Shown here: in pieces, positions 9,617 to 12,697 of the stretch
Numbering within the stretch: the first letter of the stretch is position 1
Layout of the letters: every line of letters starts with the position of its first letter
Virus record (IMG/VR): IMGVR_UViG_2695420540_000003
From: a virus
Taxonomy: Duplodnaviria > Heunggongvirae > Uroviricota > Caudoviricetes
DNA: 13,536 bases
Direction: 5' to 3' (one strand)
The notes under the pieces: model-generated
What the model saw: only the letters and a program-made list of their open reading frames with translations
What the model was told of the DNA's origin: nothing
Databases searched by the model: none
Made by a program: the position numbers and the translations under genes

Positions 9617-10221
9617 GGATACAGGTCAGTACCCTGCCTGATGGTGTGGAGACATACGGGGTGTGGGGACTCTCCCTGCCGTCACTGCGCCGTCGCCTGT
9701 TCCGCTGTGTCTCCGTCCGGGAAAACACGGACGGCACCTTTGCCATCACGGCGGTGCAGCACGTACTGGAAAAAGAAGCCATCGTGGATAACGGTGCCCG
9801 CTTTGAGCCGCAGTCAGGTTCCCTGAACAGCGTCATCCCACCGGCAGTGCAGCACCTGACGGCCAGTATCTGGCGCAGGCGAAATGGGACACGCCGCGGG
9901 TGGTGAAGGGTGTGCGCTTCAGTCTGCGCCTGACCAGTGGTAAGGGAACGGATGCCAGACTGGTGACCACCGCCATCACCGCAGACACGGAGCACCGTTT
10001 CAGCGGCCTGCCGCTCGGGGAATACACCCTGACGGTGCGGGCGATAAACAGCTATGGCCAGCAGGGTGAACCTGCCACCACCACCTTCCGGATTGCCGCA
10101 CCGGCAGCACCGTCGCGGATTGAGCTGACGCCGGGCTATTTTCAGATAACCGCAACGCCGCATCTTGCCGTTTATGACCCGACGGTACAGTTTGAGTTCT
10201 GGTTCTCGGAAAAGCGGATTG
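9617..10221 (+). repeat. J middle-region segment, divergent allele (copy A), homologous to 10232-10863
   Basis: Encodes ...RIQVSTLPDGVETYGVWGLSLPSLRRRLFRCVSVRENTDGTFAITAVQH... through ...[30 protein letters not shown]. Copy B encodes the same stretch with many substitutions, but the last ~130 nt are near-identical. It ends exactly at the N at 10222. Confidence 0.7.
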
Positions 10222-10684
10222 NGGCGTGAAGGTAAAAGTGAGCCGTGTTCCTGACGGCGTTGCCGGATACAGTGTATGGGGGCTGAAGCTGCCGATGCTG
10301 CGCCAGCGCCTGTTCCGCTGCGTGAGTATCCGTGAGAACGACGACGGCACGTATGCCATCACCGCCGTGCAGCATGTGCCGGAAAAAGAAGCCATCGTGG
10401 ATAACGGGGCGCACTTTGACGGCGACCAGAGCGGCACGGTGAATGGTGTCACGCCGCCAGCGGTGCAGCACCTGACCGCAGAAGTCACCGCAGACAGTGG
10501 GGAATATCAGGTGCTGGCGCGCTGGGACACGCCGAAGGTGGTGAAGGGCGTGAGCTTCCTGCTCCGTCTGACCGTAACAGCGGATGACGGCAGTGAGCGG
10601 CTGGTCAGCACGGCCCGGACGACGGAAACCACTTACCGCTTCACACAACTGGCGCTGGGGAACTACAGGCTGACAGTCCGGGCA

Positions 10685-11685
10685 GTAAATGCGTGGGGGC
10701 AGCAGGGCGATCCGGCGTCGGTATCGTTCCGGATTGCCGCACCGGCAGCGCTGTCGCGGATTGAGCTGACGCCGGGCTATTTTCAGATAACCGCCACGCC
10801 GCATCTTGCGGTTTATGATCCGACGGTACAGTTTGAGTTCTGGTTCTCGGAAAAGCGGATTGCGGATATCAGGCAGGTTGAAACCACAGCACGCTATCTT
10901 GGCACGGCGCTGTACTGGATAGCCGCCAGTATCAATATCAAACCGGGCCATGATTATTATTTTTACGTTCGCAGTGTGAACACCGTTGGCAAATCGGCAT
11001 TCGTGGAGGCTGTCGGTCGGGCGAGCGATGATGCGGAAGGTTACCTGGATTTTTTCAAAGGAGAGATAGGGAAAACACATCTGGCTCAGGAGCTGTGGAC
11101 GCAGATTGATAACGGTCAGCTTGCGCCGGACCTGGCTGAAATCAGGACGTCCATTACGAATGTCAGCAATGAAATCACGCAGACCGTCAATAAAAAACTG
11201 GAAGACCAGAGTGCGGAAATCCAGCAGATACAGAAAGTTCAGGTTGATACAAATAATAACCTGAACAGCATGTGGGCCGTGAAACTGCAGCAGATGAAGG
11301 ACGGACGCCTTTATATTGCGGGTATCGGAGCCGGTATTGAGAATACTCCAGCAGGTATGCAGAGTCAGGTGCTGCTGGCGGCAGACAGGATTGCGATGAT
11401 TAATCCTGCGAATGGCAACACAAAGCCGATGTTTGTTGGTCAGGGCGATCAGATATTCATGAACGACGTGTTCCTGAAACGCCTGACGGCTCCGACCATT
11501 ACCAGCGGCGGTAATCCTCCGGCATTTTCCCTGACACCGGACGGAAAACTGACCGCTAAAAATGCAGATATCAGTGGCAGTGTGAATGCGAACGCCGGGA
11601 CGCTCAACAATGTCACGGTAAATGAAAACTGTACGATTAAGGGCATGCTGGAGGCGACTCAGGTCAGAGGTGACTTCGTTAAAGC
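10685..11685 (+). repeat. 1001-nt direct repeat unit (copy B part), tandem with 11697-12697
   Basis: Runs from gtaaatgcgtgggggcagcagggcgatccggcg... to ...ggtgacttcgttaaagc. The same 1001-nt stretch recurs at 11697-12697 with scattered substitutions (e.g. TTARYL vs TSARYL, YFYVRS vs YFYIRS). The two units are separated only by the N-run. Confidence 0.85.
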
Positions 11686-11696
11686 NNNNNNNNNNN
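11686..11696. other. run of 11 N (assembly gap or scaffold join); a single N also at 10222
   Basis: Literal n characters in the sequence. Both N positions coincide exactly with restarts of the J repeat. Confidence 0.95.
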
Positions 11697-12697
11697 GTAA
11701 ATGCGTGGGGGCAGCAGGGCGATCCGGCGTCGGTATCGTTCCGGATTGCCGCACCGGCAGCACCGTCGCGGATTGAGCTGACGCCGGGCTATTTTCAGAT
11801 AACCGCCACGCCGCATCTTGCGGTTTATGATCCGACGGTACAGTTTGAGTTCTGGTTCTCGGAAAAGCGGATTGCGGATATCAGGCAGGTTGAAACCAGC
11901 GCCCGCTATCTTGGCACGGCGCTGTACTGGATAGCCGCCAGTATCAATATCAAACCGGGCCATGATTATTACTTTTATATCCGCAGTGTGAACACCGTTG
12001 GCAAATCGGCATTCGTGGAGGCTGTCGGTCGGGCGAGCGATGATGCGGAAGGTTACCTGGATTTTTTCAAAGGAGAGATAGGGAAAACACATCTGGCTCA
12101 GGAGCTGTGGACGCAGATTGATAACGGTCAGCTTGCGCCTGACCTGGCTGAAATCAGGACGTCCATTACGGATGTCAGCAATGAAATCACGCAGACCGTC
12201 AATAAGAAACTGGAAGACCAGAGTGCGGCAATTCAGCAGATACAGAAGGTTCAGGTTGATACAAATAATAACCTGAACAGCATGTGGGCTGTGAAGCTGC
12301 AGCAGATGCAGGACGGACGCCTTTATATCGCGGGTATTGGTGCCGGTATTGAGAACACCCCTGACGGCATGCAGAGTCAGGTGCTGCTGGCGGCGGACAG
12401 GATTGCGATGGTTAATCCTGCGAATGGCAACACAAAACCGATGTTTGTTGGTCAGGGCGATCAGATATTCATGAACGACGTGTTCCTGAAACGCCTGACG
12501 GCCCCCACCATTACCAGCGGTGGAAATCCATCGGCATTTTCCCTGACTCCGGACGGAAAGCTGACCGCTAAAAATGCGGATATCAGTGGCAGTGTGAATG
12601 CGAACGCCGGGACGCTCAACAATGTCACGGTAAATGAAAACTGTACGATTAAGGGCATGCTGGAGGCGACTCAGGTCAGAGGTGACTTCGTTAAAGC
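11697..12697 (+). repeat. 1001-nt direct repeat unit (copy C part), tandem with 10685-11685
   Basis: Same as the preceding unit, offset by exactly 1012 nt, estimated at roughly 97-98% identity by eye. Confidence 0.85.

What the first reader, a model, noticed from the sequence alone, without database searches (positions are those of the whole stretch)
9617..12697. Tandem partial copies of the J middle region joined exactly at N characters: probable assembly chimera of different J alleles
Three overlapping versions of the J region encoding ...[30 protein letters not shown] occur in tandem (ending near 10221, 10863 and 11875). Copy A (9617-10221) is a clearly divergent allele of copy B (10232-10863). 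Copies B and C share a 1001-nt unit (10685-11685 and 11697-12697) that differs by scattered substitutions, several of them non-synonymous. Every junction coincides with N characters (10222; 11686-11696) and each restart changes reading frame. This is what results when contigs with overlapping, non-identical ends are scaffolded instead of merged, for example from several lambdoid prophages with paralogous J genes in one genome. A genuine J expansion is much less likely.
Basis: partly seen in the sequence, partly recalled or inferred. Interest (0 to 1): 0.5.

Follow-up and report, generated by a model that had tools for sequence, protein, structure and literature searches.

The report
False J-gene repeats from scaffolding
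The apparent triple repeat inside a prophage tail-tip gene (J) is almost certainly a draft-assembly artefact: three overlapping, non-identical pieces of J were placed end to end with N placeholders instead of being merged or kept apart.

Summary
The window's only Ns are at 10222 (one) and 11686-11696 (eleven). After each, J restarts about 0.6 kb and exactly 1,001 nt further back. Copies B and C match without gaps at 96.1% (39 differences). Copy A is about 76% identical to B. The reading frame changes at both joins.

- Each of the three segments is collinear with an ordinary single-copy J in complete E. coli genomes.
- Neither junction is found in 5,426 complete genomes.
- Of 109 related loci, none of the 98 without Ns shows doubled J sequence, while 9 of the 11 with Ns do, always as a backward jump at a single N.
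- An N-free assembly that is 100% identical to segment 1 runs straight into one normal J 3' end.
- B/C differences sit mostly at third codon positions (30 of 39), as expected for separately translated alleles.

The scaffold therefore stacks pieces of at least three J alleles. They most likely come from several lambdoid prophages in one genome, since such genomes hold a median of 2-3 J copies and up to 15.

Separately, segment 1's J is a real pseudogene, with a nonsense codon and a 22-nt deletion shared with four other assemblies.

This is ordinary and of low interest, except as a warning about database quality.

The parts
7990..10221 (+). Segment 1: the 5' two-thirds of J (tail tip attachment / host specificity protein). 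It ends at a contig end inside the second Ig-like domain. It is a pseudogene allele.
   Evidence: Aligns to E2348/69 J from its start codon at 96.5%. It is 100% identical to IMG/VR locus L003 over 2,232 nt. Pfam finds FNIII-A_GpJ and Phage-tail_3, then Ig_J (partial) and Ig_J_second positions 2-39.
8191..8193 (+). In-frame TGA where relatives have TGG (Trp). This is a nonsense mutation in segment 1's J.
   Evidence: Alignment to E2348/69. The same TGA is present in L003, L005, L006 and L007, and TGG in L002.
9856..9857 (+). Site of a 22-nt deletion (frameshift) in segment 1's J. In the intact allele the deleted stretch is bounded by the 7-nt direct repeat CTGACGG.
   Evidence: Alignment to E2348/69 shows a single 22-nt gap. 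The deletion junction is present in five IMG/VR contigs and confirmed in L003, L005, L006 and L007.
9610..10221 (+). Copy A: the end of segment 1 that overlaps the start of segment 2 in J coordinates.
   Evidence: Repeat families D2-D4 and D1 have spacings of 613-641 nt. Identity to B is 76.5%. It maps to L001 up to 6177.
10222..10222 (.). Single N: the scaffold join between contig ends that overlap by about 0.63 kb in J coordinates.
   Evidence: The left flank maps to reference 5659-6177 and the right flank restarts at 5545. The 61-nt junction has no match in 5,426 complete genomes.
10223..11685 (+). Segment 2: an internal J fragment from a second allele, read in frame 2. It has no J start and no J end.
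   Evidence: Maps to L001 5545-7001 at 96.5% with no gaps. Pfam finds Ig_J, Ig_J_second and Phage_Tail_Tip. The same sequence start lies inside continuous J genes in L008-L013. It has 14-16 sites that match neither the native allele nor C.
10685..11685 (+). Copy B of the 1,001-nt unit.
   Evidence: 1,001 nt, with 39 mismatches to 11697-12697 and no gaps.
11686..11696 (.). Run of 11 Ns: the scaffold join between contig ends that overlap by 1,001 nt.
   Evidence: The left flank maps to reference 6502-7001 and the right flank restarts at 6001. No complete genome has the two flanks in this order.
11697..13112 (+). Segment 3: the 3' part of J from a third allele, running to its stop codon, read in frame 3. 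It includes copy C (11697-12697).
   Evidence: Maps to L001 6001-7416 with no gaps at 96.7%. The best relative, L054, is 99.1% identical. Pfam finds Ig_J_second, Phage_Tail_Tip and Ig_GpJ_C, the receptor-binding domain.
13183..13536 (+). Start of the lom-like outer-membrane protein gene, downstream of J and cut off by the window end. Context only.
   Evidence: Collinear with the L001 gene for an Ail/Lom family protein at 7487-8086.

Best explanation
The tandem partial J copies are a scaffolding artefact. The sample contained several related but non-identical J genes, most likely from several lambdoid prophages in one E. coli genome. A short-read assembler broke its contigs inside J, where the alleles share exact stretches. 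A scaffolder then ordered three such contigs one after another. Their ends overlap in gene coordinates by about 0.63 kb and 1.0 kb, but they are only about 76% and 96% identical. They were therefore not merged, and were joined with placeholder Ns (1 and 11). The result is a chimeric, frame-broken pseudo-J assembled from three alleles, and no such DNA molecule exists.

What is shown: the overlap geometry; the absence of both junctions from finished genomes; the strict association of doubled J sequence with N joins; and an N-free single-copy continuation in near-identical relatives.

What is inferred: the assembler's behaviour, and that the alleles are paralogues within one genome.
For: - Ns occur only at the two restart points.
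- The three segments map to overlapping parts of one J gene: L001 3919-6177, 5545-7001 and 6001-7840.
- Window 8000-13536 (5,537 nt) covers only 3,911 nt in complete genomes. Each segment alone is collinear with a single annotated gpJ.
- The junction 1 probe has no match in 5,426 complete genomes. For junction 2, the one record that covers both halves has them in natural order.
- Of the 110 sequences tested (109 related loci plus the window), the 98 without Ns have no doubly covered J positions. All 10 with doubled J (383-2,186 nt), the window among them, contain N joins. Excluding the window this is 9 of 11 against 0 of 98, p = 1.3e-11.
- The flanks of those Ns map as backward jumps in J, with up to 4 stacked copies in L017.
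- L003 is 100% identical to seg1 and 99.98% identical over 10 kb, has no Ns, and continues into one normal J 3' end.
- Contig ends lie inside exact stretches shared between copies: 43, 65 and 119 nt. This fits graph-based contig breaks at repeats.
- B/C differences: 30 of 39 are at third codon positions, and 27 differing codons are synonymous against 9 non-synonymous. Both copies therefore diverged while being translated in their own frames.
- J is multi-copy, with a median of 2-3 and up to 14-15 places per genome.
- Literature: ALLPATHS-LG records overlapping contigs as negative gaps (PMC5368935). [quoted passage not shown]
Against: - No reads, coverage data or assembly metadata were available, and the source contig was not found. 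The artefact is therefore inferred from comparisons and was not seen directly.
- The 11-N run looks like a small positive gap estimate, which is odd for contigs that really overlap by 1,001 nt.
- Seg2 has no relative closer than 96.7%. It could itself be a chimeric contig or a natural mosaic allele.
- The related loci were chosen by exact matches to window sequence, so they are not a random sample.
Confidence: 0.95

Rival explanations
1. The same kind of artefact, but the three J alleles come from different strains or phages in a mixed sample (a contaminated culture, metagenome or virome) and not from paralogous prophages of one genome.
For: The source of the window was not found in any collection searched, so an isolate origin is not proven. 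The three alleles differ by 4-24%, which mixed strains could also produce.
Against: The relatives with the same type of N join are IMG/VR UViG contigs, which I believe come from isolate genomes. Complete single E. coli genomes routinely hold 2-15 J places. One genome is therefore enough to explain the alleles.
Confidence: 0.1
2. A real tandem partial duplication or triplication inside J, for example from unequal recombination between J paralogues. It would give a frame-broken J pseudogene, and the Ns would stand for a few uncalled bases.
For: Seg1's J is already a pseudogene, so further rearrangement of a decaying prophage is conceivable. Recombination among J paralogues is plausible given their mosaic alleles: every 20-mer of seg2 is found in other loci.
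Against: Neither junction is present in 5,426 complete genomes. None of 98 N-free related loci has doubled J. Both junctions fall exactly on Ns. Near-identical N-free relatives are single-copy. The third-position bias of B/C differences means the copies diverged as translated genes, not after a frame-breaking duplication.
Confidence: 0.03
3. A functional array of alternative J cassettes for host-range switching, working by inversion, by recombination between cassettes, or by a diversity-generating retroelement.
For: The repeated region lies just upstream of, and in seg3 includes, the receptor-binding end of J. Phages are known to vary this end.
Against: There is no invertase or reverse transcriptase gene in the window. 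The only inverted repeats are 18-23 nt imperfect pairs of the kind chance gives. B/C mismatches involve all base classes: B has A at 16, T at 10, C at 8 and G at 5 of them. This is not the adenine-specific pattern of a diversity-generating retroelement. Only seg3 carries the receptor-binding domain, and seg2 stops before it. The copies are direct repeats in different frames with no start codons or splice-like logic. The arrangement is absent from finished genomes.
Confidence: 0.01

Closest known systems
False (artefactual) duplications flanking assembly gaps in draft genomes: overlapping contig ends or 'negative gaps' left unmerged by scaffolders (PMC9516828; PMC5368935)
   Same: The duplicated blocks are separated exactly by N gaps. 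The copies are similar but not identical. The duplication disappears in finished or N-free assemblies of the same region. It creates false and broken gene models.
   Different: In the vertebrate cases described, the non-identical copies are usually the two haplotypes. Here they are most likely paralogous J genes of different prophages in a haploid genome. Two joins are also stacked within one gene.
Bacteriophage lambda gpJ (tail tip attachment / host specificity protein) and its homologues in E. coli lambdoid prophages
   Same: All three segments are J sequence, with the J-specific Pfam domains in the normal order within each segment. They sit in the normal Z-U-V-G-T-H-M-L-K-I-J-lom gene order.
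   Different: A normal J is a single ORF of about 3.4-3.5 kb. Here the domain series restarts twice (Ig_J, then Ig_J_second) with frame changes, and segment 1 carries a nonsense codon and a frameshift.
Sister scaffolds in IMG/VR: UViG contigs L007, L017, L023, L037, L054, L056, L064, L075 and L079
   Same: Single-N joins inside J, after which J restarts further upstream. They hold 2-4 stacked partial J copies. L007 shares 99.9% identity with window 1-10224.
   Different: The join positions and allele combinations differ. All their N runs are 1 N, whereas the window also has an 11-N run.

Membership tests
Scaffolding artefact (unmerged overlapping contig ends / false duplication at an assembly gap) | The duplicated blocks are separated by assembly-gap characters (Ns) | tested here: met
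   The window's only Ns are at 10222 and 11686-11696, exactly at the two restarts.
Scaffolding artefact (unmerged overlapping contig ends / false duplication at an assembly gap) | The flanks of each gap map to overlapping intervals of a single-copy reference region (negative gap) | tested here: met
   The left flanks end at L001 6177 and 7001, and the right flanks restart at 5545 and 6001. The query collapses from 5,537 to 3,911 nt in complete genomes.
Scaffolding artefact (unmerged overlapping contig ends / false duplication at an assembly gap) | The duplication is absent from gap-free or finished assemblies of the same or closely related DNA | tested here: met
   Neither junction is present in any of the 5,426 complete genomes. 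None of 98 N-free loci has doubled J. L003, which is 100% identical to seg1, is single-copy.
Scaffolding artefact (unmerged overlapping contig ends / false duplication at an assembly gap) | Read evidence: abnormal depth, mixed alleles or discordant read pairs at the duplicated blocks | not testable with these tools
   No reads or source assembly were available, and the source contig was not found.
Lambda gpJ family (tail tip attachment protein J) | J-specific domains (FNIII-A_GpJ, Phage-tail_3, Ig_J, Ig_J_second, Phage_Tail_Tip, Ig_GpJ_C) above Pfam cut-offs | tested here: met
   All six families were found above the gathering score across the three segments.
Lambda gpJ family (tail tip attachment protein J) | A single uninterrupted ORF encoding the whole protein | tested here: not met
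   There is a TGA at 8191-8193, a 22-nt frameshift deletion after 9856, and a frame change at each N join. As written, the scaffold encodes no intact J.
Diversity-generating retroelement (template/variable repeat pair) | Mismatches between the repeats confined to adenines of one copy, with a reverse transcriptase gene nearby | tested here: not met
   Mismatches involve all four bases in both copies. No reverse transcriptase ORF or domain was seen among the tail genes.
Invertible tail-fibre cassette system (Gin/Cin/Pin type) | Inverted repeats flanking alternative 3' cassettes, plus an adjacent invertase | tested here: not met
   The copies are direct repeats. Only short imperfect inverted repeats of 18-23 nt were found. 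There is no recombinase gene in the window.

The most novel reading that the evidence does not exclude
The A-B-C arrangement is real DNA: a decaying prophage whose J gene has captured partial J copies from co-resident prophages by unequal recombination. This would form a store of alternative central and receptor-proximal J segments that recombination could reuse.
Probability: 0.02. Interest if true: 0.45.

Novelty: not a real feature. Interest (0 to 1): 0.08.

Why it matters
There is no new biology here. The value is practical. Scaffolds like this one put false, truncated and chimeric J gene models into sequence databases. They inflate apparent J copy number and diversity, and they can mislead host-range or prophage-typing analyses. 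In the related IMG/VR E. coli contigs I sampled, 9 of 109 loci carry the same single-N stacked-J artefact. N joins inside multi-copy phage genes should therefore be treated as contig breaks and not as sequence. The only real biological point is that segment 1's J is a conserved pseudogene, which marks a defective prophage lineage.

Tried and rejected
- Looked for the source contig. An exact pattern across the single-N join found nothing in viral contigs. A seg3-specific 62-mer found nothing in genome contigs and 97 viral contigs, none identical to the window. A seg2-specific 151-mer matched 11 viral contigs and nothing in genome contigs. The source and its assembler remain unknown. The metagenome collection was not scanned.\n- Tested whether seg2 is simply a patchwork of the native allele (L003-like) and allele C. 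Rejected, because 14-16 sites match neither. Those variants do exist in natural alleles elsewhere, so seg2 is either a third allele or a mosaic.\n- Tested whether seg3 or seg2 is the native continuation of seg1. In L003, L004, L005 and L007 the native 3' end is about 95% identical to B and diverges from C after about 780 nt. Only L006, with just 202 nt available, continues with C-like sequence (99.5%). This is not resolved.\n- Diversity-generating retroelement and invertible-cassette readings: rejected.\n- The one complete-genome record that covers both halves of junction 2 (NZ_CM129872) is a Rac prophage J remnant with the halves in natural order, not a tandem junction.\n- Tried to document the convention of writing a single N for a negative gap. 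The literature search only yielded a statement that ALLPATHS-LG reports negative gap sizes for overlapping contigs (PMC5368935). The single-N convention rests on my own recollection and is unverified.

Full report
**Context.** The window is the tail module of a lambdoid E. coli prophage.
- ORFs with Pfam matches to Z (124-699), the tail tube protein V (1099-1851), the tape measure protein H (2717-5290) and I (6966-7646) lie upstream.
- By collinearity with annotated complete genomes, M, L and K follow H, then J begins at 7990 and a lom-like gene begins at about 13183.
- The closest phage and genome records are E. coli lambdoid phages and prophages whose matching gene is annotated gpJ or host specificity protein J.

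**Check of the observation.**
- The window's only non-ACGT characters are one N at 10222 and eleven Ns at 11686-11696.
- Units 10685-11685 and 11697-12697 are each 1,001 nt. They align without gaps, with 39 mismatches (96.1%).
- The repeat finder recovers a three-copy family with spacings of 641 and 1,012 nt, plus A/B families with spacings of 613-638 nt.
- A global alignment of 9617-10221 with 10232-10862 gives 76.5% identity and 36 gap columns.
- The peptide FWFSEKRI ends at 10220 (frame 3), 10861 (frame 2) and 11873 (frame 3).
- The description is therefore correct to within 1-2 nt, including the frame change at each restart and the presence of non-synonymous differences (9 of 36 differing codons).

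**What the three pieces are.** I call them seg1 (J 7990-10221), seg2 (10223-11685) and seg3 (11697-13536).
- Against the intact J of a complete genome (L001, NZ_CP104114, J at 3919-7416), seg1 maps to 3919-6177, seg2 to 5545-7001 and seg3 to 6001-7840. The scaffold therefore jumps back by about 0.63 kb at the single N and by exactly 1,001 nt at the 11-N run.
- Each segment on its own is collinear with a single annotated gpJ in thousands of complete genomes.
- The whole stretch 8000-13536 (5,537 nt) is covered by only 3,911 nt of those genomes. The difference of about 1,626 nt fits the two copy spacings (613 + 1,012).
- Pfam shows the same thing at domain level:
  - seg1: FNIII-A_GpJ, Phage-tail_3, a partial Ig_J, and the first 39 positions of Ig_J_second.
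  - seg2: restarts with a complete Ig_J, then Ig_J_second and Phage_Tail_Tip.
  - seg3: restarts with Ig_J_second, then Phage_Tail_Tip and the receptor-binding Ig_GpJ_C.

**Is the arrangement real DNA?**
- A 61-nt probe across the single-N join was searched at an E-value limit that its 30-nt halves cannot pass on their own. It has no match in 5,426 complete E. coli genomes.
- A 111-nt probe across the 11-N join finds its halves separately in 3,734 genomes. Only one record covers both halves. There the unit start lies upstream of the unit end, 214 nt apart. That record is a Rac prophage J remnant with an internal deletion, not a tandem junction.
- I then collected 109 related loci, mainly IMG/VR contigs that share exact strings with the window plus the three complete-genome loci, and mapped each onto the reference J, together with the window (110 sequences).
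  - The 98 loci without Ns have no doubly covered J positions.
  - All 10 sequences with doubled J (383-2,186 nt) contain N joins.
  - Leaving the window out, this is 9 of 11 against 0 of 98 (Fisher p = 1.3e-11).
  - The flanks of those Ns map as backward jumps in J coordinates. L017 and L056 each have three single-N joins, and L017 stacks up to four partial J copies. L054 stacks three J 3' halves.
- Stacked J pieces joined at Ns are thus a recurrent product of draft assemblies of this gene. They are never seen where the sequence is continuous.

**Near-identical relatives.**
- L003 (IMGVR_UViG_2531839193_000006, no Ns) is 99.98% identical to window 223-10224 and 100% identical over J 7990-10221. 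Past the position of the first join it runs on into a single, ordinary J 3' end.
- That native 3' end is about 95% identical to copy B. It diverges from copy C after about 780 nt.
- Copy B has 14-16 sites that match neither the native allele nor C. Those variants do occur in natural, N-free J genes elsewhere.
- The scaffold therefore mixes pieces of at least three alleles. Over the region that all three copies share (10044-10221, 10685-10862 and 11697-11874), all three sequences differ.
- E. coli genomes hold a median of 2-3 and up to 14-15 J-like places, so a single genome can supply these alleles.

**Internal evidence.**
- Of the 39 B/C differences, 30 are at third codon positions. 27 differing codons are synonymous and 9 are not. 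This is the signature of two genes that diverged while each was translated in its own frame. It is not the pattern expected from drift after a frame-breaking duplication, nor from sequencing error.
- The contig ends lie inside stretches that are exactly identical between copies:
  - the last 43 nt of seg1 match B and C;
  - the last 119 nt of seg2 match C;
  - the first 65 nt of seg3 match B.
- That is where a graph-based assembler would break contigs (inference).

**Most likely mechanism.** Short-read assembly of a genome with several J paralogues broke its contigs inside J. A scaffolder linked three of them. Their ends overlap in gene coordinates but are only 76% and 96% identical, so they were not merged and were joined with placeholder Ns.
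- The literature supports the general class. ALLPATHS-LG reports overlapping contigs as negative gaps (PMC5368935). [quoted passage not shown]
- That a single N is the usual placeholder for a non-positive gap estimate is my own recollection and was not verified.
- The 11-N run is unexplained in detail. It looks like a small positive gap estimate for contigs that in fact overlap by 1,001 nt.

**Rivals.**
- A real tandem duplication is contradicted by the junction tests, the perfect association with Ns, the single-copy relatives and the codon-position pattern.
- A diversity-generating retroelement is excluded, because mismatches involve all bases and there is no reverse transcriptase.
- An invertible cassette system is excluded, because the repeats are direct, only short chance-level inverted repeats exist, and there is no invertase.
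- A mixed-strain origin of the alleles, as opposed to paralogues in one genome, cannot be excluded without the reads. It would still be the same artefact.

**A real feature found on the way.** Seg1's J is a pseudogene, independently of the joins.
- It has a TGG-to-TGA change at 8191-8193.
- It has a 22-nt deletion after 9856. In the intact E2348/69 allele the deleted stretch is bounded by the direct repeat CTGACGG.
- Both lesions are present in L003, L005, L006 and L007 and absent from E2348/69. They are therefore inherited mutations of a defective prophage lineage, not assembly errors.

**Verdict.** It is not a real genomic feature. Interest is low, apart from the warning that such N-joined stacks of J fragments are fairly common in IMG/VR E. 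coli contigs and create false J gene models.

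Noticed in passing
window 8191-8193 and 9856/9857: Segment 1's J carries a TGG-to-TGA nonsense codon and a 22-nt frameshift deletion. In the intact allele the deleted stretch is bounded by the 7-nt direct repeat CTGACGG. Both lesions are identical in four other assemblies (L003, L005, L006, L007) and absent from E2348/69. 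This marks a conserved, tail-defective prophage lineage.
   Followed up: yes
L007, L017, L023, L037, L054, L056, L064, L075, L079 (IMG/VR UViG contigs): Nine of the 109 related loci sampled carry the same kind of single-N join inside J, with J restarting upstream (2-4 stacked partial copies). It is a systematic artefact of these draft assemblies and will create false J gene models in viral databases.
   Followed up: yes
window 10223-11685: Every 20-mer of segment 2 occurs in some other J allele among the fetched loci, yet no single relative exceeds 96.7% identity. The allele is either a natural recombination mosaic among J paralogues or a chimeric contig. The two could not be told apart.
   Followed up: partly
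window 1; L007 462-467: Window position 1 corresponds to L007 position 467, five bases after a single-N join in that sister scaffold (N at 462). Both assemblies therefore seem to break at the same place, just upstream of the Z gene, which hints at a repeat boundary there.
   Followed up: no
window 7647-7989 (ORF 7668-8009): The I-J intergenic region is 343 nt. It holds a 113-aa ORF with no Pfam match that overlaps the J start. Bases 7814-7989 do not align to the E2348/69 prophage, although the flanks do.
   Followed up: no
L111 2812-3292 (NZ_CM129872.1, Rac prophage region): A J-related pseudogene fragment in which the start and end of the 1,001-nt unit lie only 214 nt apart. This is an internal deletion of about 0.79 kb in a prophage remnant.
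   Followed up: partly
window 1865-2736: Two adjacent ORFs (1865-2296 and 2323-2736) sit where lambda has G and T, which lambda joins by a programmed -1 frameshift. I did not check for a slippery sequence.
   Followed up: no
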